Source: Escherichia coli
GTDB taxonomy: Bacteria > Pseudomonadota > Gammaproteobacteria > Enterobacterales > Enterobacteriaceae
Assembly: GCF_013122565.1 (NCBI RefSeq)
Contig: NZ_CP053258.1
Length of the DNA stretch: 64,000 nucleotides
Direction: 5' to 3' (one strand)
This document shows positions 2,839-45,141 of this stretch, piece by piece; the stretch's first letter is position 1, and every line of letters begins with the position of its first letter. A program made the position numbers and the translations under genes. The notes beneath the pieces were generated by a model that ran no database searches, had not been told where the DNA came from, and saw only the letters and a program-made list of their open reading frames with translations.

Positions 2839-4090
2839 GTGCATCCCAAAGTAAGCGGCTGTCCAGCCATTCCACAGCAAGAATAGTCAAAATTACCGCT
2901 GCGCCGAAATAAAACGCAGCCGGTCCCATAGTAAAAGCGAGAATCTGATCGCGATTAATCAGCGACATGGTTAAAGATATGACAAACAGGTCGAGCATCG
3001 ACCAGCGACCAATCCAGGTCACCATTCGCAGTAACAGAATGCGTGTGCGTAAACCTTGTTGGCATTTAAAATGAATGCTCAACAGTAAAGTGAACATGAC
3101 GATCACTTTAGTAAACGGAACCAGAATACTGGCGATAAACACGATTCCTGCAACCGCAATGTTGCTACTTGCCAGCGACATAATTCCGGAAAGAATTGTA
3201 TCTTCCTGCCGTCCTCCGTTCAGATAAATGATAGAAATAGGCAACAGGTTGGCAGGTAACAATAAGACGATTGACGCTAACAGCGCCGCCCAGCATTTTT
3301 GCAAACTATGACGGCGACGCAGGCGTAGCGGAATATGGCAACGCGGGCAGCGACCACGCTGATCAGGATAGCCGGTAAAATGGCACCCAAGACAGACACG
3401 AAGTTTCTCGTCCCTACGCGTAGCGGGGCGCTGCGGATAAAATCGCTCCCACAGCTCCTCAACATTAAGATGTGACAACGTCACCGTTGTTAAAATCACC
3501 AACGCCACAAAAGAGAACAAGCCGACGCCAGCCTGGATATGGGCATAATCCTGTACCTTTATAGAAGCAACGCCAATGCCGACCAGGTAGATATCCAGCA
3601 TTACCCACTCTTTAAGGCGCTCAAGCATCAGCAGTACCGGGCGTAAGTTCATTCCCAGTCGGTTACCAAACCATAAATAAGCTATGGAGGTCACCAGAAT
3701 GAGGGGGGCACCAATAACGCAGAAAAAGACCATCGACCCCGTTATCGTATCGCCCTGTTTGGTCATTTGCCAGATGCCTTGCATGACGTTGGCGTCGATA
3801 CGAATACCTAACAGCCAGATATGCAACAGCGGTTCGCCCCAGGCAAACGGCATCAGCAACAGCATGGTGAAAGCCATTGCCGCCAGGCGCGTTAGCGACC
3901 AGTCGCGCCCGTCGCGAATTTTTGCCTGACAGCGCGGACAATAGGCACTCTGATGAGAATTTATCTCGGGCAGGCTAAACAGCATGTCACATTGCGGGCA
4001 ACGTTGGTAATCACCACGCGGCAGTTCCTCGCCGATTGCCCTCACTGTTATCTTTTTTGTCGGCGTAATTTGTTGTGTGTTAAGAGCCAT
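2807..4090 (-). CDS. letA: Inner-membrane protein LetA (YebS), PqiA family
   Basis: 427-aa ORF starting [22 protein letters not shown] with paired Cys-rich zinc-ribbon-like motifs and TM segments; directly upstream of letB. Confidence 0.9.
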
Positions 4091-13285: not shown

Positions 13286-14095
13286 ATGTCGTTTTCCTGT
13301 CCACTTTGCCATCAGCCTCTTTCGCGTGAAAAAAACAGCTATATCTGTCCCCAGCGACATCAGTTTGATATGGCGAAAGAAGGGTATGTCAATCTGCTGC
13401 CCGTTCAGCATAAACGGTCTCGTGATCCGGGCGACAGCGCGGAAATGATGCAAGCACGCCGCGCATTCTTAGATGCCGGACATTATCAGCCGCTGCGTGA
13501 TGCAATTGTCGCCCAACTGCGGGAACGGCTTGATGATAAGGCCACGGCGGTGCTGGATATTGGCTGTGGTGAAGGGTATTACACACACGCATTTGCCGAT
13601 GCGTTGCCCGAAATCACCACCTTTGGCCTGGATGTCTCGAAGGTAGCGATAAAAGCGGCGGCGAAACGCTATCCGCAGGTCACTTTTTGTGTCGCTTCCA
13701 GCCACCGTTTGCCGTTTTCCGATACCAGTATGGACGCCATAATACGTATTTACGCGCCGTGTAAAGCAGAAGAATTAGCGCGAGTAGTGAAGCCCGGCGG
13801 TTGGGTCATTACTGCCACGCCGGGACCGCGACATTTGATGGAGCTGAAGGGGCTGATTTACAATGAAGTACATCTTCATGCACCTCATGCAGAACAACTG
13901 GAAGGTTTTACATTACAGCAGAGTGATGAGTTGTGTTATCCGATGCGTCTTCGCGGTGATGAAGCCGTCGCATTATTGCAGATGACGCCGTTTGCCTGGC
14001 GTGCGAAGCCAGAAGTCTGGCAAACACTGGCAGCAAAAGAAGTGTTCGACTGCCAGACGGACTTTAATATTCACCTCTGGCAGCGTTCTTATTAA
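13286..14095 (+). CDS. rlmA: 23S rRNA m1G745 methyltransferase RlmA
   Basis: 269-aa ORF starting [28 protein letters not shown], with N-terminal Cys4 zinc motif and SAM-MTase motif [10 protein letters not shown]. Confidence 0.9.
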
Positions 14096-18761: not shown

Positions 18762-20318
18762 ATGGAATTCTTAATGGACCCCTCAATTTGGGCGGGGCTA
18801 CTCACGCTTGTTGTTCTCGAAATTGTGCTGGGTATCGATAACCTGGTCTTCATCGCCATTCTTGCTGACAAACTGCCGCCAAAACAACGCGATAAAGCGC
18901 GTTTGCTGGGGTTATCACTGGCGCTGATTATGCGTCTGGGACTGCTGTCGCTGATTTCATGGATGGTCACGCTGACCAAACCGCTATTTACCGTCATGGA
19001 TTTCTCCTTCTCCGGACGCGACCTGATTATGTTGTTCGGGGGGATATTCTTGCTGTTCAAAGCAACAACCGAACTGCATGAACGGCTGGAAAACCGCGAT
19101 CATGATTCCGGCCACGGTAAAGGCTACGCCAGTTTCTGGGTGGTCGTCACACAGATTGTCATCCTTGACGCCGTCTTCTCGTTGGATGCGGTAATTACTG
19201 CAGTAGGGATGGTTAACCATCTGCCGGTGATGATGGCGGCGGTAGTGATTGCGATGGCGGTTATGTTGCTGGCATCCAAACCGCTGACGCGATTCGTTAA
19301 CCAGCACCCCACGGTGGTGGTGCTCTGTCTGAGCTTCCTGTTAATGATTGGTCTGAGTCTGGTGGCAGAAGGTTTCGGTTTCCACATTCCGAAAGGTTAC
19401 CTGTATGCCGCGATTGGCTTCTCGATCATCATCGAAGTGTTTAACCAGATTGCGCGTCGCAACTTTATTCGTCACCAGTCGACTTTGCCGCTGCGAGCGC
19501 GTACTGCCGATGCCATCCTGCGTTTGATGGGCGGGAAACGTCAGGCCAATGTTCAGCACGATGCCGATAACCCGATGCCGATGCCGATCCCGGAAGGTGC
19601 ATTTGCCGAAGAAGAACGTTACATGATTAACGGCGTACTGACGCTGGCGTCGCGTTCTCTGCGCGGGATCATGACGCCGCGCGGTGAAATAAGCTGGGTT
19701 GACGCTAATCTCGGGGTCGATGAAATCCGCGAGCAGCTGCTCTCCTCACCGCACAGCCTGTTCCCGGTATGTCGCGGTGAACTGGATGAAATCATCGGAA
19801 TCGTACGTGCTAAAGAACTGCTGGTGGCGCTGGAAGAGGGCGTTGATGTGGCGGCGATTGCTTCGGCGTCTCCGGCGATTATCGTCCCGGAAACCCTCGA
19901 TCCGATCAACCTGTTGGGCGTGCTGCGTCGTGCTCGCGGGAGCTTTGTTATCGTGACCAACGAGTTTGGTGTGGTACAAGGTCTGGTCACGCCGCTGGAT
20001 GTGCTGGAAGCCATTGCGGGTGAATTCCCGGACGCTGACGAAACGCCGGAAATCATTACTGATGGTGACGGCTGGCTGGTAAAAGGCGGTACAGATTTGC
20101 ATGCCTTGCAGCAGGCGCTTGATGTTGAGCACCTTGCCGATGACGATGATATCGCGACGGTCGCGGGCCTCGTGATCTCGGCAAATGGTCACATTCCCCG
20201 TGTGGGCGATGTGATTGATGTAGGGCCACTGCATATCACCATCATTGAAGCCAATGATTATCGTGTTGATCTGGTTCGCATTGTTAAAGAGCAACCGGCG
20301 CACGATGAAGATGAGTAA
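18762..20318 (+). CDS. yoaE: TerC-family membrane protein with CBS and CorC domains
   Basis: 518-aa ORF starting [39 protein letters not shown]; AGGAG SD 6 nt upstream. Confidence 0.9.
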
Positions 20319-20321
20319 GCG

Positions 20322-33536: not shown

Positions 33537-33950
33537 CTACAAATCCAACACCAGGCGTTTACCCTTCGCACGCGAACAACAGATCAACATACTTTGCTGG
33601 CTGGCACGCTCTTCATCGCTAAAATACTGATCCCGATGGTCAGCTTCACCTTCCAGTATTGCCGTTTCGCAGGTTCCGCATACCCCTTCACGACATAAAC
33701 ATTCCACTTTCGCGGCTTTATTATTTTCAATAACCTGCAAAATAGTCATCTCTTCCGGCACCACAAACTCTTTTCCGGAACGGGCAAGCACCAGGGTAAA
33801 TGCATCGCCGGTTTTGTCTTCGATAGCAAATTGCTCAAAGTGCAGCGTATCGGCGGCGATGTCCAGACGCGCAGCTTCACTTCTTACCGCTTCAATTAGC
33901 GCCTCGGGGCCACAGGTATAAACGTGTGTGCCAGGTTCGATATCCGCCAT
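33537..33950 (-). pseudogene. yeaX: 3' fragment of yeaX (cntB-like oxidoreductase): end of NAD-binding domain plus plant-type 2Fe-2S ferredoxin domain
   Basis: ORF 33537-34016 (159 aa). From MADIEPGTHVYTCGPEALIEAVRSEAARL onward it looks like the C-terminus of an FNR-type reductase followed by a 2Fe-2S domain (CREGVCGTCE ... LICC). The N-terminal FAD/FMN-binding domain is absent and yeaW/yeaV are not found upstream. Confidence 0.6.
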
Positions 33951-33992
33951 TGACATCCTCCACGTCCTGAAGGACGAGGAGGATGTCAATGG
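33947..33992. repeat. 46-bp near-perfect palindrome at the 5' edge of the yeaX fragment
   Basis: ccattgacatcctccacgtcc-tgaa-ggacgaggaggatgtcaatgg: two 21-nt arms with one mismatch. The minus-strand reading of the left arm gives GGAGG, 6 nt spacer, ATG (the MADIEPG start). Confidence 0.85.
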
Positions 33993-40327: not shown

Positions 40328-41509
40328 TTAGCGAATTTCTTTGTCTCTCCCGGCGCAAAGTCCGAAAATCGCCATCAGTAGTGACAGTATTGCAACACCC
40401 ATCAGTGGTGCGGACCAGTCACCGATAGCATCGTGTATTTTCCCCATCAGCGGCGGCCCACAGGCTGCCAGCAAATACCCGACGGATTGTGCCATCCCCG
40501 AGAGTGCCGCCGCCTGATGCGCAGAACTAGCCCGCAGACCAATGAACGTCAATCCCAGTATCATTGCTGCGCCGGAACCAAAGCCGAAAAGCAGAGTCCA
40601 GGTGATCGCGTGCGCTGGCATAAAGCAGAGCCCAACCGCGCCCACTGCGCACATCAAGGCAACGAACGCTGCAATACCACGCTGATCTTTCACATGATGT
40701 AAGAAAAGAGGGATCAGCAAACCGGGCGCTGCTGTGGCTAGTTGCAGCAAACCATGCAGTGAACCCGCCTGTGCTTCGCTATAGCCGTGACTGATGAGGA
40801 TCGCCGGAAGCCAGCCAATAATCACGTAATAGACCAGTGAGTTGATCCCAAGAAACAATGTTACCTGCCAGGCAAGCGGCGAACGCCAGATACCCCGAGT
40901 ATGTAAGGCGCGTGAAGTACTCAAATTTGCATGTTGTTGGCTTCGCCACTGTGGCAGCCATAAAAAAAGAGCCAGCAGAGGAAAACACATCAGCATGAGC
41001 AAGGCGCCTTGCCAGCCAAAACCGTTCAAAGCCAGCGGCACTACCATAGCCGATCCCAGGGCCGCCGCAGCTCCCATTGTCAGGGAATATGCGCCGGTAA
41101 GTCTGGCGACGGAATGAGGGAAATCGCGTTTAATTAATCCTGGCAGTAAGACATTACCTAATGCAATCCCACCACCAATGACCGCTGTACCGCCAAATAA
41201 TAAGTAAGGCGAAGGGAGAGAGCGAATTGCGATACCTGCACAGATCAAAAGTAACGCGGCAAACAGGCTACGTTCCATACCAAAACGTCGCGCCACCGGG
41301 GCAGCCAGAGGTGAGATTAGCGCAAAGGCCAATAATGGCAGGGTGGTTAATAAGCCGGTTTGCGCCGTCGTCAGCGAGTAAGCGGAACGAATCGTATCGA
41401 GTAACGGTGCTGCGCCGGTGAAGGTGACGCGTAATGTTGTGGCAATCATTAGAATGCCAGCGATAAGGACAATCCTGTTTTTGCCGCTTAATGAAGTTGA
41501 ACAGGTCAT
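40328..41509 (-). CDS. nimT: MFS exporter NimT (YeaN)
   Basis: 393-aa multi-TM ORF starting MTCSTSLSGKNRIVLIAGILMIATTLRV. Confidence 0.9.
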   Translation of the reverse strand: MTCSTSLSGKNRIVLIAGILMIATTLRVTFTGAAPLLDTIRSAYSLTTAQTGLLTTLPLLAFALISPLAAPVARRFGMERSLFAALLLICAGIAIRSLPSPYLLFGGTAVIGGGIALGNVLLPGLIKRDFPHSVARLTGAYSLTMGAAAALGSAMVVPLALNGFGWQGALLMLMCFPLLALFLWLPQWRSQQHANLSTSRALHTRGIWRSPLAWQVTLFLGINSLVYYVIIGWLPAILISHGYSEAQAGSLHGLLQLATAAPGLLIPLFLHHVKDQRGIAAFVALMCAVGAVGLCFMPAHAITWTLLFGFGSGAAMILGLTFIGLRASSAHQAAALSGMAQSVGYLLAACGPPLMGKIHDAIGDWSAPLMGVAILSLLMAIFGLCAGRDKEIR

Positions 41510-41605
41510 ATGCTTCTCATTGTTACAAACGAGGCTGTACCTTACCGTTTTTATTGTTATGTTGAATCAAGCTAAAATGACAAATTATCGCTAAATTCGG
41601 ACAAA

Positions 41606-42427
41606 ATGATGCACAGGTTGAATCTCAATGGCTATGAACCCGACCGACACCATGAAGCCGCGGTCGCATTTTGTATTCACGCCGGAACGGATGAGTTAAC
41701 CAGTCCTGTACATCAGCACCGCAAAGGACAGCTGATACTGGCATTACATGGTGCAATTACCTGTACGGTGGAAAATGCTTTGTGGATGGTGCCGCCACAA
41801 TATGCGGTTTGGATACCGGGCGGGGTGGAACATAGTAATCAAGTGACAGCTAACGCTGAACTCTGTTTTCTGTTTATCGAACCCAGCGCAGTGACAATGC
41901 CGACAACATGTTGCACATTGAAAATATCGCCCTTATGCCGGGAATTAATTTTAACTCTGGCAAACAGGACGACGACTCAGCGTGCTGAGCCGATGACCCG
42001 CAGATTAATTCAGGTCCTGTTTGATGAACTCCCTCAGCAGCCACAACAACAGCTGCACCTACCCGTTTCTTCTCATCCTAAAATCCGCGCGATGGTGGAG
42101 ATGATGGCGAAAGAGCCCGTCGAGTGGGGGTCATTGGGGCAATGGGCTGGCTTTTTTGCGATGAGTGAACGCAATCTTGCCCGACTGATAGTAAAAGAGA
42201 CGGGGTTGAGTTTTCGCCAGTGGCGACAGCAGTTACAGCTGATTATGGCGCTTCAGGGATTAGTGAAAGGCGATACTGTACAGAAAGTTGCTCATACGCT
42301 GGGGTATGATTCAACAACGGCCTTTATTACTATGTTTAAGAAAGGCCTGGGGCAAACGCCAGGCCGATATATTGCGGGATTAACTACTGTTTCCCCACAA
42401 TCAGCGAAACCAGACCCGCGGCAATAA
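41606..42427 (+). CDS. nimR: AraC-family regulator NimR (YeaM)
   Basis: 273-aa ORF with cupin N-domain and C-terminal AraC HTH; divergent from nimT. Confidence 0.9.
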
Positions 42428-42830
42428 GCGGGCCAACCGGTACGCCGCGAAACAGCGCTACGCCTAAAACAGTGCCCACCAGCAGCCCAGCAACCAGTTG
42501 CGGCTGGCTGCCCATTAACGTCACGCCGCGCCCACCCAGCCAGGAGACAATAACGCCTACTGCAATTGCCACCAGCGATTTCCAGTTCAGAAACGAGTGA
42601 ATCAAGGTTGAGGGCGGTAGCGTCCCGCTGGCGATGGGGGCCATAACGCCAATCGTCAGAATGATTATCCCGATACTTAGCCCCTGTTTTTCAATCCACG
42701 GGAAAAAGGTGCTTAACGGTGTGACGCGGACAATGATCAACACCAGAATTGAAACGGCGACAGTGGTGTTATGACTGATAAAGCCCAGCGCAGCTAACCC
42801 GAGCAGGATCAGCAAAGTGACATCAAACAT
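42384..42830 (-). CDS. yeaL: UPF0756 membrane protein YeaL
   Basis: 148-aa multi-TM ORF starting [27 protein letters not shown]. Confidence 0.85.
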
Positions 42831-42999
42831 CGTGGTTTCCTTGCCAAAAAATAATAAGCCTGCTTACTTTACGCTTGCTGCAGGAAGGAAGTAGAAAATC
42901 TTTACGTTTTTTGCATAAAAAATCAGGCGAACTGTCATCAAACTGCCATTTGTGCACGCTAACAATAACGTGAAAACAGCTATCTCCCGGGGGCATGCT

Positions 43000-43104
43000 A
43001 TGAACGATCAAATGTTCGTCGAGACACTGATTATCACGTCATCGTTTTTTGCCATTGCGGTTGTGCTGGTTTTGTCCGTTCTGCTTATTGAACGGACAGG
43101 CTAG
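43000..43104 (+). CDS. yoaI: Small membrane protein YoaI, 34 aa
   Basis: ATG at 43000 translates to [34 protein letters not shown]; its stop abuts the convergent proX stop. Below the ORF-track size cutoff. Confidence 0.7.
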
Positions 43105-43608
43105 TTACGCAGTGCGGCGGAAATTGATCAGTTCTGGTTGCGCAATGCGCAAATAATCCGCGGTTTTCAAAATAACGGATTTATCCAGCATGCCTGCATT
43201 GAAGGCGATTTCATCAAATCGTTCGAAGAGTAGGGGGTCGGCAACCAGTTTGAGTTTTGGATGGAAGCTGAAAGGGGGGATCGCGCCGAAGACACAGCCT
43301 GTGAGTTCATCGACTTCCGCCGGGCTGGCCAACGAAGCGCGTAATCCGCCTATATGGCTGGCGAGTTGGCTCAGATCGGCCTGTTGATCGGCAGCGAGGA
43401 TCGCCAGAACATGTTGATTTACGCCATTGCCTTTGACTTTACATACCAGTGCCTTAGCCCCCTGGCCTAAAGCGGTGCCACGAATTTCTGACACCGCTTC
43501 GCATTTACCTACCGCTTCATGGGTAACGACGCGGAAGTCAGCACCTTCTTGTGATAATAAAGCGATTAACCGCTGATGCGTCACGCTTCCTTTAGCCATT
43601 TCAGTCAT
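43105..43608 (-). CDS. proX: YbaK/ProX-family aminoacyl-tRNA deacylase (YeaK)
   Basis: 167-aa ORF starting MTEMAKGSVTHQRLIALLSQEGADFRVVTHEAVGKCE. Confidence 0.9.
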   Translation of the reverse strand: MTEMAKGSVTHQRLIALLSQEGADFRVVTHEAVGKCEAVSEIRGTALGQGAKALVCKVKGNGVNQHVLAILAADQQADLSQLASHIGGLRASLASPAEVDELTGCVFGAIPPFSFHPKLKLVADPLLFERFDEIAFNAGMLDKSVILKTADYLRIAQPELINFRRTA

Positions 43609-43650
43609 TTCACGCTCCTGAGATTACAAGCAAACAACCACAGAAGATTA

Positions 43651-45141
43651 TCATGAACGGCTGTTTTTGTTCTGCTTATTGACATATAAACGCTCATCGG
43701 AAGCTTTATACGCATCATGTAACGTATCGTTTTCTTTCATCGCGTAAATACCGGAAGAGAAGCCAATCTCTTTCTGCGGCGCGATATGTTGCAGACGTTT
43801 TTCGATACGTTCAGGCAGTTGTGCTGCAATTTGCGGCGTCGAATCGACAAGAATGATGCAGAATTCATCGCCACCGAGTCGGATGGCATAATCACTTTTA
43901 CGAATCGACAGTTTAATCGCCTGAGCTAATAACGTAATCGCTAAATCCCCCTCCTGATGACCGAGGGTGTCATTTATTTGCTTTAACTTGTCCATGTCAA
44001 TTGCAATAAACATCACCGAAGAACCGGATTGCACCAGTTTTTGCAACCGCTGCTCCAGTTCAGGGGTTAAAATTTTGCGATTATAGAGTCCAGTCATCGC
44101 ATCACTAATATTTTCTCGCGACACATTTTGGTATAAACGGAAGTGCATCCGCACCATATTCAGCAAAATTAACGCCGTCAAAATCCAGAACAGAACGCTT
44201 TTCCACGAAGACGTGATAAAGTAAAGAATATCAATGGATAACGAGACACGAATGCCGCCCGGTAAGTCATGGACGTAACTGACATACTGGAACAGATTAT
44301 CTTCGCTCTGGTTGATGATAATGTCGCGCCCCGAATCTGTATCGGTTAGCGTGACATTGAGAAAACGCCAGAGGAGAGGGCGGTCATGAGTGTAAAAGAT
44401 ATTCCGCAGATTGTTTTTGTTAATATCCAGCAGCACAATCCCTTTTAGCTGCCCTGCAACATACACCGGCGTCAGCAAACTCATCACGTTCTGTTTAGTA
44501 CGCTGATCCTGGTAAATGCTCGACAATACGGTACGCCCGGTAAATACCTTTTCAATATCTTTGCGATCGATGCCAATACTTCCTGACTGCAGGAAGGACC
44601 AGTTATTCATCGCAAAGTATTCAACATTAACCGGCTCATAAAAATAGACATAGCGGTCATTGAGATCGAGATAATAGTGAAATTTCTCTTCGGCCATCCC
44701 AAGACCTGAACCGTAATCATCCTGGTGGCGGTTGCCTTCCACTGCCTGATCAAAAGCGGGTAATAGTGCTGCAGCTTCCACAATTGTGTCGCAGTCAGTG
44801 GATGCGGTTTGTAGTGTGCCGCGTAAGCCCGGGTATTTATGGGCAGTCAGGTTTAAGCCATGGGTATTATTGGCAGACTCAAAAGCCTCGCAGATGGCGC
44901 GCCGCTGTTCTGGCGACACTTCCGACTGCTCAGCAGCGAGAGCGCGCATCACATGCGCGGCAATACTCTGATTCTGATACTTATCATAAAGAAAGGAGGA
45001 GTCTGCTTTCTGCACGATATAGCGCAGATAGGCACTCATTGCTCTGTCGCTGGCGACAAGTTCAAAAATAAGGAAGGAAGATGTCAGCACAATGACACTT
45101 GCGGCGATAAAATGCCGGAGCATTCTATGGTGCAATTTCAT
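43651..45141 (-). CDS. dgcJ: Diguanylate cyclase DgcJ (YeaJ)
   Basis: ORF 43651-45321; start trimmed to MKLHHRMLRHFIAASVIVLTSSFLIF (496 aa); RLGGDEF motif. Confidence 0.85.
   Translation of the reverse strand: MKLHHRMLRHFIAASVIVLTSSFLIFELVASDRAMSAYLRYIVQKADSSFLYDKYQNQSIAAHVMRALAAEQSEVSPEQRRAICEAFESANNTHGLNLTAHKYPGLRGTLQTASTDCDTIVEAAALLPAFDQAVEGNRHQDDYGSGLGMAEEKFHYYLDLNDRYVYFYEPVNVEYFAMNNWSFLQSGSIGIDRKDIEKVFTGRTVLSSIYQDQRTKQNVMSLLTPVYVAGQLKGIVLLDINKNNLRNIFYTHDRPLLWRFLNVTLTDTDSGRDIIINQSEDNLFQYVSYVHDLPGGIRVSLSIDILYFITSSWKSVLFWILTALILLNMVRMHFRLYQNVSRENISDAMTGLYNRKILTPELEQRLQKLVQSGSSVMFIAIDMDKLKQINDTLGHQEGDLAITLLAQAIKLSIRKSDYAIRLGGDEFCIILVDSTPQIAAQLPERIEKRLQHIAPQKEIGFSSGIYAMKENDTLHDAYKASDERLYVNKQNKNSRS

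What the first reader, a model, noticed from the sequence alone, without database searches (positions are those of the whole stretch)
42384..42427. Convergent 3' overlap of nimR and yeaL (44 bp)
The two genes share 44 bp at their 3' ends on opposite strands, so neither can have an intergenic terminator and their transcripts must be antisense to each other. rlmA and mntP also converge with a 4-bp overlap (14092-14095).
Basis: seen in the sequence. Interest (0 to 1): 0.2.

Follow-up and report, generated by a model that had tools for sequence, protein, structure and literature searches.

The report
nimR tail runs into yeaL
Two E. coli genes on opposite strands really do share 44 bases at their ends, but it is an ordinary, already annotated overlap: a disordered, unselected tail of the regulator NimR reads into the conserved end of the membrane protein gene yeaL.

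Summary
nimR (41606-42427, +) and yeaL (42384-42830, -) overlap by 44 bp. RefSeq annotates the same ends, and the allele that keeps nimR open through the overlap is in 5391 of 5426 complete E. coli genomes.

The overlap is a by-product of yeaL evolution, not dual coding. In 60 Enterobacteriaceae loci with nimR next to yeaL, the overlap ranges from -216 to +45 bp. The commonest value is 17 bp (27 loci, NimR 264 aa); 14 loci have 44 bp.

One site, window 42398, sets the length. YeaL Ile145 gives TAA/TGA in nimR. YeaL Val145 gives CAA/CGA, so nimR reads on to a stop made by yeaL codons L135-I136.

In the 27-nt extension, substitutions follow yeaL's codon pattern only, and the NimR tail shows no constraint. 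It lies beyond the last conserved NimR residues and is the only low-confidence part of the AlphaFold model.

"No intergenic terminator" is literally true. However, a terminator-like hairpin for yeaL sits inside nimR (42344-42365), and its synonymous stem sites are conserved in Escherichia and Citrobacter. No 3'-end data were available.

A 2025 paper already lists yeaL-nimR as a convergent excludon. The rlmA/mntP 4-bp TTAA overlap is also confirmed. Low interest.

The parts
41606..42427 (+). nimR (yeaM) CDS, 273 aa. AraC-family regulator of the divergent nimT gene.
   Evidence: ORF. Pfam HTH_18 covers residues 180-255, with AraC_binding also matched. RefSeq annotation. Described as a 273-aa AraC-family single-target regulator of nimR/nimT (PMC5934670).
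42384..42830 (-). yeaL CDS, 148 aa. DUF441 membrane protein whose C-terminus is conserved.
   Evidence: ORF. DUF441 covers residues 7-145, positions 1-139 of a 139-position profile. The C-terminal sequence [11 protein letters not shown]...GK is nearly constant in 80 Enterobacteriaceae loci.
42384..42427 (.). The 44-bp CDS overlap: NimR residues 260-273 plus stop, opposite YeaL residues 135-148 plus stop. nimR codon position 2 faces yeaL position 3, and nimR position 3 faces yeaL position 2.
   Evidence: Sequence. Phase and per-class diversity.
42398..42400 (+). nimR codon 265, CAA in E. coli. Position 42398 sets the length: C (YeaL Val145) gives Gln and read-on; T (YeaL Ile145) gives TAA and a 264-aa NimR with a 17-bp overlap.
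   Evidence: Among the 44 loci with gap-free coordinates, codon 265 is TAA or TGA in all 27 with a 17-bp overlap, and CAA or CGA in all 17 with a 44- or 20-bp overlap. In E. coli the C-allele 36-mer is in 5391 genomes and the T-allele 36-mer in none.
42401..42427 (+). The 27-nt lineage-specific extension of nimR (residues 266-273 plus stop). It shows no selection as protein. Its stop, TAA at 42425-42427, is formed by yeaL codons L135 (CTT) and I136 (ATT).
   Evidence: yeaL position 3 (= nimR position 2) has diversity 0.538; yeaL position 2 (= nimR position 3) has 0.000. In species where the stretch is coding for nimR, yeaL position-3 diversity is 0.360 against 0.362 in the yeaL-only zone, P=0.49. 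AlphaFold pLDDT is below 50 only for residues 262-273. Codon identities.
42334..42365 (-). Candidate intrinsic terminator of yeaL, embedded in nimR codons 244-254. The stem-loop is 42365..42344 (GGCCUGG-8 nt-CCAGGCC), followed by UUUCUUAAAC.
   Evidence: Pattern scan. The same site is flagged in Citrobacter youngae and Salmonella diarizonae with a UUUUUU tract, and is not flagged in Klebsiella. The four synonymous stem sites have diversity 0.075 against 0.477 at 138 control sites, P about 2e-4 to 6e-4, while the loop wobble sites have 0.52-0.74. Folding energy is -14.1 kcal/mol with z = -1.28, which is not significant on its own. No 3'-end mapping data were found.
40328..41509 (-). nimT (yeaN), a CynX/NimT-family MFS transporter. 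It is the divergent partner and only known target of NimR (context).
   Evidence: NCBIfam TIGR00896 scores 495 bits. Annotation. PMC5934670.
14092..14095 (.). rlmA/mntP 4-bp convergent overlap: TTAA holds both stop codons.
   Evidence: ORFs and sequence. RefSeq annotation of rlmA and mntP overlapping by 4 bp.

Best explanation
This is a real but functionally passive convergent CDS overlap. nimR and yeaL have been packed tail to tail since early in the Enterobacteriaceae. The functional NimR protein ends at about residue 258, after the second AraC helix-turn-helix. What follows is a short disordered tail whose length depends on where the reverse complement of yeaL happens to produce a stop codon in nimR's frame. 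In most genera YeaL has Ile at residue 145; its first base, A, gives the T of a TAA or TGA in nimR, so NimR is 264 aa and the overlap is 17 bp. In E. coli and the Citrobacter freundii group YeaL has Val145 (G), which makes that codon CAA or CGA. Ribosomes then read nine more codons to a TAA/TGA formed by yeaL codons Leu135-Ile136, giving 273 aa and 44 bp. Purifying selection in the shared stretch acts on yeaL alone. This much is shown. Transcription is inferred. yeaL transcripts most likely end at a hairpin plus U-tract 19-50 nt past the yeaL stop, inside nimR codons 244-254, so the yeaL 3' UTR is antisense to the end of nimR. nimR transcripts have no recognisable intrinsic terminator. They probably end by Rho-dependent termination or RNA polymerase collision in the C-rich, G-poor RNA antisense to yeaL. 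The two mRNAs are therefore complementary over roughly 90 nt or more, which fits the published excludon call.
For: Both genes are real and annotated with these ends. Overlap lengths in 60 loci: 17 bp in 27, 44 bp in 14, 20 bp in 3, one each at 21 and 45 bp, 6 bp in 2, and 0 to -216 bp in 10. Codon 265 (TAA/TGA against CAA/CGA) and YeaL residue 145 (Ile against Val) track overlap length without exception in the 44 gap-free loci. In 42401-42427, diversity is 0.538 at yeaL position 3 and 0.000 at yeaL position 2. That matches the yeaL-only zone (0.472 and 0.026) and is the reverse of the nimR-only zone. Within the 14 loci where the extension is coding, yeaL synonymous diversity is 0.360 in the extension and 0.362 in the yeaL-only zone (P=0.49), so no added constraint is detectable. 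In the NimR alignment the last invariant column is P252, and tails vary from 0 to 20 residues. The AlphaFold model has mean pLDDT 87.1, with 262-273 the only segment below 50. For the hairpin. The + strand after the nimR stop has GC skew of -0.19 to -0.27, and no terminator-like site was found on the + strand in 41400-43200. Transcript overlap is reported in PMC12288877.
Against: No 3'-end mapping, ribosome profiling or proteomic data for this locus could be retrieved, so translation of the tail and both RNA 3' ends are inferred. The hairpin's folding energy is not better than shuffled sequence (z = -1.28). The scan finds 1-2 such sites per region by chance. The E. coli U-tract is interrupted (UUUCUU). 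The stem is a perfect palindrome, so sequence alone cannot say on which transcript it acts. It is absent as a perfect stem in all 25 loci of the Klebsiella/Enterobacter group, so those species must end yeaL transcripts some other way. The first 17 nt of the overlap show lower diversity at yeaL synonymous sites (0.16-0.23, only 5 sites), so some dual constraint there cannot be excluded. Species are phylogenetically related, so the resampling P values are approximate.
Confidence: 0.85

Rival explanations
1. The overlap is a selected regulatory device, a convergent excludon. Transcription of yeaL through the nimR 3' end, and the reverse, causes transcriptional interference or RNase III cleavage of the duplex. 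Expression of yeaL and of the nimR repressor, and through it the NimT efflux pump, would then be mutually exclusive.
For: yeaL-nimR is listed among 165 convergent excludons found in at least 50% of 58 MG1655 RNA-seq sets. Tail-to-tail adjacency is kept in most Enterobacteriaceae genera that have nimR. The overlap allele is essentially fixed in E. coli.
Against: The excludon call rests on read coverage alone, and any pair with overlapping CDSs that is transcribed must satisfy it. Overlap length drifts from -216 to +45 bp with no sign of selection on the extension. nimR and nimT are missing altogether next to yeaL in E. albertii, E. whittamii, Kosakonia and Phytobacter. If the hairpin terminates yeaL, it limits the antisense reach into nimR to about 50 nt. 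No reciprocal expression data were found.
Confidence: 0.1
2. True dual coding: the 14 C-terminal residues of NimR are functional, for example in ligand response, dimer contact or degradation, and are co-optimised with the YeaL C-terminus.
For: The 273-aa form is fixed in E. coli and shared with 13 Citrobacter-group loci. The first 17 nt of the overlap show somewhat reduced diversity at yeaL synonymous sites.
Against: nimR position 2, where every change alters the amino acid, is the most variable class in the extension (0.538) and is as variable as yeaL synonymous sites elsewhere. Tail residues differ between close Citrobacter species. Most genera lack the extension. pLDDT is below 50 for residues 262-273. 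The Pfam HTH domain ends at residue 255.
Confidence: 0.04
3. Annotation artefact: one reading frame really ends earlier in E. coli through sequencing error, a frameshift or a wrongly called stop, so there is no overlap.
For: Published surveys found many long convergent overlaps to be 3'-extension misannotations (PMC2478687), and orthologous NimR is usually 9 residues shorter.
Against: Stop codons are not a prediction choice. There is no in-frame stop in nimR before 42425 or in yeaL before 42384. The sequence is identical or nearly so in more than 5000 independent complete genomes. At 44 bp the overlap is below the 60-bp threshold at which that survey flagged errors.
Confidence: 0.01

Closest known systems
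Convergent (tail-to-tail) overlapping gene pairs in prokaryotes, formed by stop-codon loss and 3' extension (Rogozin et al. 2002 as cited in PMC2478687; PMC2478687; PMC4161906)
   Same: Two bona fide genes on opposite strands share their 3' ends. The overlap arose when the stop of one gene moved into the neighbour. Only one frame is constrained. The overlap is short, under 60 bp. E. coli K-12 has 75 such pairs.
   Different: Nothing essential differs. Here the exact toggling nucleotide (42398, YeaL Ile/Val145) and both states, 17 and 44 bp, can be read directly from related genera.
Convergent excludons, meaning overlapping 3' transcription of neighbouring genes (ExcludonFinder, PMC12288877)
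   Same: The pair is explicitly listed in the E. coli MG1655 excludon set, as are its neighbours yeaK-yoaI and yeaO-yoaF.
   Different: Classical excludons involve long antisense UTRs with demonstrated reciprocal regulation. Here transcript overlap follows necessarily from CDS overlap, and no reciprocal regulation has been shown.
Intrinsic (Rho-independent) terminators located inside a neighbouring convergent gene
   Same: A GC-rich 7-bp stem, an 8-nt loop and a U-rich tail lie 19 nt past the yeaL stop, with conserved stem wobble positions.
   Different: It is built from the conserved AraC-family motif K-K-G-L-G-Q-T-P-G of the opposing gene. The U-tract is interrupted in E. coli. It runs one way only, since there is no U-tract on the nimR strand. 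Activity is not demonstrated.

Membership tests
Convergent overlapping CDS pair | Both reading frames are genuine protein-coding genes | tested here: met
   NimR has HTH_18 (E=1.5e-18) and AraC_binding. YeaL has DUF441 (E=2.7e-44). Orthologs are present across Enterobacteriaceae. RefSeq annotates both.
Convergent overlapping CDS pair | Opposite strands, with the 3' ends including both stop codons lying inside the partner's CDS | tested here: met
   nimR stop at 42425-42427 lies inside yeaL. yeaL stop at 42384-42386 lies inside nimR.
Convergent overlapping CDS pair | Overlap conserved in orthologous pairs | tested here: met
   48 of 60 loci with adjacent nimR overlap by at least 6 bp, although the length varies: 17, 20, 21, 44, 45 and 6 bp.
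Dual-coding overlap (both frames under purifying selection) | Reduced synonymous divergence of each frame within the overlap | tested here: not met
   In 42401-42427, yeaL synonymous sites diverge as fast as elsewhere in yeaL (0.360 against 0.362, P=0.49). All variation falls on nimR second positions. For 42387-42400 the result is inconclusive, with only 5 sites.
Excludon (convergent) | Transcripts of the two genes overlap in vivo | not testable with these tools
   Literature only: listed in the MG1655 excludon set from RNA-seq coverage (PMC12288877). The supplementary values are not held.
Excludon (convergent) | Mutually exclusive expression, or RNase III processing of the duplex | not tested
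   No data were retrievable. It needs expression measurements in promoter and rnc mutants.
Intrinsic terminator (for yeaL) | GC-rich stem-loop immediately followed by a U-tract on the transcribed strand | tested here: met
   7-bp stem with 6 GC pairs, 8-nt loop, tail UUUCUUAAAC. The tail is UUUUUU in Citrobacter and Salmonella.
Intrinsic terminator (for yeaL) | Structure maintained by selection | tested here: met
   In the Escherichia/Citrobacter group, stem wobble diversity is 0.075 against 0.477 at control sites, P about 2e-4 to 6e-4, and loop wobble sites vary freely. Not met in the Klebsiella/Enterobacter group, where 0 of 25 loci have a perfect stem. No compensatory changes are available because the stem does not vary.
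Intrinsic terminator (for yeaL) | RNA 3' ends map to the U-tract | not testable with these tools
   No yeaL or nimR entries in the Term-seq supplements that are held. Other datasets are not held.
Bidirectional terminator shared by convergent genes | Hairpin flanked by an A-tract upstream and a U-tract downstream, so that it terminates both strands beyond both stop codons | tested here: not met
   On the + strand the hairpin is followed by GAUAUAUUGCGGG, not a U-tract. It also lies 60 nt upstream of the nimR stop, so termination there would give non-stop mRNA.

The most novel reading that the evidence does not exclude
The hairpin at 42344-42365 is a selected, one-way intrinsic terminator for yeaL, built from the conserved AraC-family motif KKGLGQTPG of the opposing nimR gene in the Escherichia/Citrobacter/Salmonella lineage. 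Its efficiency sets how far yeaL transcription invades nimR. That would couple expression of a DUF441 membrane protein to the NimR/NimT nitroimidazole efflux circuit.
Probability: 0.12. Interest if true: 0.4.

Novelty: already known. Interest (0 to 1): 0.12.

Why it matters
It matters little. The overlap is in the standard annotation, belongs to a well-described class, and the pair is already catalogued as an excludon. The added value is a clean worked example: a conservative Ile/Val change in one gene moves the stop codon of the gene on the other strand. There is also a hint that a terminator can be hidden in the conserved coding motif of a convergent neighbour. Both are of modest use for annotation rules and for interpreting 3'-end maps. 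Neither opens a new question.

Tried and rejected
1. Experimental 3' ends. I looked for yeaL, nimR, yeaM, b1789 and b1790 in supplements. The TERMITe and Adams et al. 2021 files held nothing. No supplement text is held for PMC9023263, PMC12288877, PMC8848933 or PMC9122600. The terminator therefore remains a prediction.

2. Rfam at a permissive E-value over 41000-43700 gave only two sub-threshold hits: JUMPstart at 20.9 bits (gathering score 35) and permuted tmRNA at 20.1 bits (gathering score 47). I treat both as chance.

3. Hairpin thermodynamics. z = -1.28 against shuffles, so energy gives no independent support.

4. Bidirectional terminator. Rejected, because there is no U-tract on the nimR strand and the hairpin lies upstream of the nimR stop.

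5. Misannotation. Rejected.

6. My first ortholog stop-finding script let tblastn alignments run through stop codons and reported spurious overlaps of 119-281 bp. It was corrected by walking to the first in-frame stop.

7. Adding Salmonella to the gap-free codon analysis failed because of a 1-nt coordinate shift. Salmonella was then examined separately, and its stem is intact.

Full report
**What is there**

The window is E. coli chromosome. The 1.8-kb stretch around the finding matches 5413 of 5426 complete E. coli genomes at 95-100% identity.

An ORF on the + strand, 41606-42427 (273 aa), is NimR (YeaM). It carries AraC_binding, HTH_18 and HTH_AraC domains, and the HTH match ends at residue 255-256. 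An ORF on the - strand, 42384-42830 (148 aa), is YeaL. It matches DUF441 from residue 7 to 145, reaching the last position of the profile.

The two share 42384-42427, which is 44 bp. RefSeq annotates the same ends in strain 1943, MG1655, O157:H7, S43 and RM9088.

The side remark is also correct. rlmA (13286-14095, +) and mntP (-) share TTAA at 14092-14095, which holds both stop codons.

**How unusual it is**

It is not very unusual. The annotated 50 kb around it holds 11 convergent gene pairs. Their spacings are 45, 142, -4, 3, 119, 53, 21, 58, 21, -44 and 0 bp.

E. coli K-12 has 75 convergent overlapping pairs (PMC4161906). Convergent overlaps are a described class that arises by stop-codon loss and 3' extension (PMC2478687).

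In nimR's frame, the strand opposite yeaL has few stops. Seven occur in about 148 codons, and stop-free stretches reach 41 codons. A 14-codon run-in is therefore unremarkable.

**Comparative evidence**

A scan of one genome per species returned 80 Enterobacteriaceae yeaL loci. nimR lies convergent and next to yeaL in 60 of them. It is absent in E. albertii, E. whittamii, two other Escherichia lineages, Kosakonia, Phytobacter and others.

I walked each nimR to its first in-frame stop. The overlap lengths in those 60 loci are:

| Overlap (bp) | Loci | Taxa or note |
|---|---|---|
| 17 | 27 | Klebsiella, Raoultella, Enterobacter, Kluyvera, Leclercia, Lelliottia and others; NimR about 264 aa |
| 44 | 14 | E. 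coli and the Citrobacter freundii group; NimR 273 aa |
| 20 | 3 | Citrobacter amalonaticus group |
| 21 | 1 | Salmonella diarizonae |
| 45 | 1 | Yokenella |
| 6 | 2 | Trabulsiella |
| 0 to -5 | 8 | includes Salmonella arizonae and Buttiauxella |
| -122 to -216 | 4 | |

The YeaL stop is at the same place everywhere. Its C-terminus, [11 protein letters not shown][LI][VI]S[LI]x[IV]G[KR]x, is almost invariant.

In the NimR alignment the last invariant column is P252. After about residue 258 the tails differ in both length (0-20 residues) and sequence.

**The mechanism that sets the length**

The frames are phased so that nimR position 2 faces yeaL position 3, nimR position 3 faces yeaL position 2, and the two first positions face each other.

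nimR codon 265 (42398-42400) is built from the first base of YeaL codon 145 and the last two bases of codon 144.
- Where YeaL has Ile145 (A..) after a codon ending in TT or TC, nimR reads TAA or TGA and stops. The overlap is 17 bp.
- Where YeaL has Val145 (G..), as in E. coli (GTG), nimR reads CAA or CGA and continues.

This association has no exception in the 44 loci with gap-free coordinates: 27 have TAA/TGA and 17 have CAA/CGA.

The next stop in E. coli, TAA at 42425-42427, is made the same way by YeaL Leu135 (CTT) and Ile136 (ATT). A conservative Ile/Val change in a YeaL transmembrane segment thus lengthens NimR by nine residues.

In E. coli the C allele is effectively fixed. The 36-mer carrying it is in 5391 of 5426 genomes, and the T-allele version of that 36-mer is in none.

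**Which frame is under selection**

Nucleotide diversity by position class across the 44 gap-free loci:

| Zone | nimR pos 3 / yeaL pos 2 | nimR pos 2 / yeaL pos 3 | Pattern |
|---|---|---|---|
| nimR only (42150-42383) | 0.490 | 0.085 | nimR codon pattern |
| Extension (42401-42427) | 0.000 | 0.538 | yeaL codon pattern |
| yeaL only (42428-42680) | 0.026 | 0.472 | yeaL codon pattern |

The extension therefore evolves like yeaL and not like nimR.

The test can be restricted to the 14 loci in which the extension is nimR coding sequence. There, yeaL synonymous sites diverge as fast inside the extension (0.360) as in the rest of yeaL (0.362; resampling P=0.49). The NimR extension imposes no detectable constraint.

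In the first 17 nt of the overlap, yeaL synonymous diversity is lower (0.16-0.23). That rests on only five sites and is inconclusive.

An AlphaFold2 model built on the 29-sequence alignment has mean pLDDT 87.1. Its only segment below 50 is residues 262-273, which is the overlap tail.

**Transcription**

On the yeaL strand, 19 nt past its stop, lies GGCCUGG-CGUUUGCC-CCAGGCC followed by UUUCUUAAAC (42365..42334). It is the only terminator-like site the scan found in 41400-43200. It is encoded by nimR codons 244-254, [11 protein letters not shown], the conserved AraC-family motif.

The same site is flagged at the homologous position in Citrobacter youngae and Salmonella diarizonae, with a UUUUUU tract. 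It is not flagged in Klebsiella pneumoniae.

Evidence from 20 Escherichia and Citrobacter loci:
- The four synonymous positions that must hold particular bases to keep the stem have mean diversity 0.075.
- The 138 control four-fold sites have mean diversity 0.477. Resampling gives P about 6e-4, or about 2e-4 when matched by codon family.
- The three loop wobble positions have diversity 0.52-0.74.
- The Pro codon is CCA in 19 of 20 loci. None of the 18 other conserved Pro codons is that constant.

In the Klebsiella/Enterobacter group, 0 of 25 loci keep a perfect stem.

Caveats:
- The folding energy (-14.1 kcal/mol) is no better than shuffled sequence, z = -1.28.
- The scan yields 1-2 hits per region by chance.
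- The stem is a perfect palindrome, so sequence alone cannot assign it to one strand. Only the U-tract points to yeaL.
- No 3'-end data could be retrieved.

I rate "yeaL terminator embedded in nimR" at about 0.55.

For nimR no intrinsic terminator was found on the + strand. The RNA downstream of its stop is C-rich and G-poor, with GC skew -0.19 to -0.27. I infer Rho-dependent or collision-dependent termination; this is not shown.

Either way the two mRNAs must be complementary at their 3' ends. ExcludonFinder lists yeaL-nimR, along with the neighbouring yeaK-yoaI and yeaO-yoaF, among 165 convergent excludons present in at least 50% of 58 MG1655 RNA-seq sets. rlmA-mntP is not in that list (PMC12288877).

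**Comparison with what is known, and novelty**

The feature meets the definition of a convergent overlapping CDS pair. It fails the test for dual-coding selection in the 27-nt extension. It is listed in the literature as an excludon, on coverage grounds only. Its hairpin meets the sequence definition of an intrinsic terminator but not that of a bidirectional one.

NimR is a known 273-aa AraC-family single-target regulator of nimR/nimT (PMC5934670). YeaL is an uncharacterised DUF441 protein, reported as repressed by the sRNA UhpU (PMC12704781).

The new details are the stop-toggling site and the possible embedded terminator.

**Verdict**

The biology is ordinary: a passive 3' run-on of an unconstrained NimR tail into the conserved end of yeaL. 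Interest is 0.12.

Noticed in passing
window 43000-43104 (+) and 43105-43608 (-): yoaI and yeaK converge with a zero-base gap; their stop codons abut. The pair is also in the published excludon list, as is yeaO-yoaF (21-bp gap).
   Followed up: partly
L004-L007 (E. coli SCPM-O-B-8794 lineage, Escherichia sp. E1V33, E. whittamii, E. albertii), about 80 nt downstream of yeaL: nimR and nimT are absent. yeaL is followed directly, on the same strand, by a gene starting MNIQCKRVY (MSIQ... in E. albertii L007), probably yeaO (inferred from its position in the E. coli annotation). The nimRT pair therefore behaves as a two-gene insertion/deletion cassette within Escherichia.
   Followed up: partly
L002 (Escherichia sp. 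MOD1-EC7003) 2472-2620: nimR carries a large internal deletion; only residues 2-42 remain detectable. The breakpoint lies inside the hairpin, since the sequence diverges after GGCCTGGC.
   Followed up: no
L085 (E. coli 23CRST051, NZ_AP045826.1) 2053-2810: An IS1 element is inserted within the nimR/yeaL overlap. RefSeq then calls a 279-aa NimR and a 166-aa YeaL with foreign C-termini. This is a natural uncoupling of the two genes in one strain.
   Followed up: partly
window about 33949-33992 and about 37743: Compared with strain 1943, the window lacks about 3.4 kb covering most of yeaX-yeaW-yeaV (carnitine monooxygenase and BCCT transporter). It also lacks a 1.75-kb remnant of an IS200/IS605 tnpA and tnpB.
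   Followed up: no
window about 20317-20321 (L082 15179/15183): yoaE and pdeD converge with only a 3-nt gap, another very tight convergent junction in this region. The window coordinates are inferred from the L082 offset and were not read directly.
   Followed up: no
window 42377: K-12 and strain S43 carry A instead of G here, which changes NimR Gly258 to Arg just before the overlap. O157:H7 carries C to T at 42419, which changes both proteins (nimR position 1 and yeaL position 1).
   Followed up: no
window 42595-42624 (+): Sub-threshold Rfam match to JUMPstart (20.9 bits against a gathering score of 35, E=0.23) on the strand antisense to yeaL. Probably chance.
   Followed up: no
L033 (Citrobacter koseri) 3164-3673: nimR looks degraded. 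Only residues 17-176 align, at 56% identity, with an early stop, while part of the hairpin region downstream of yeaL persists.
   Followed up: no
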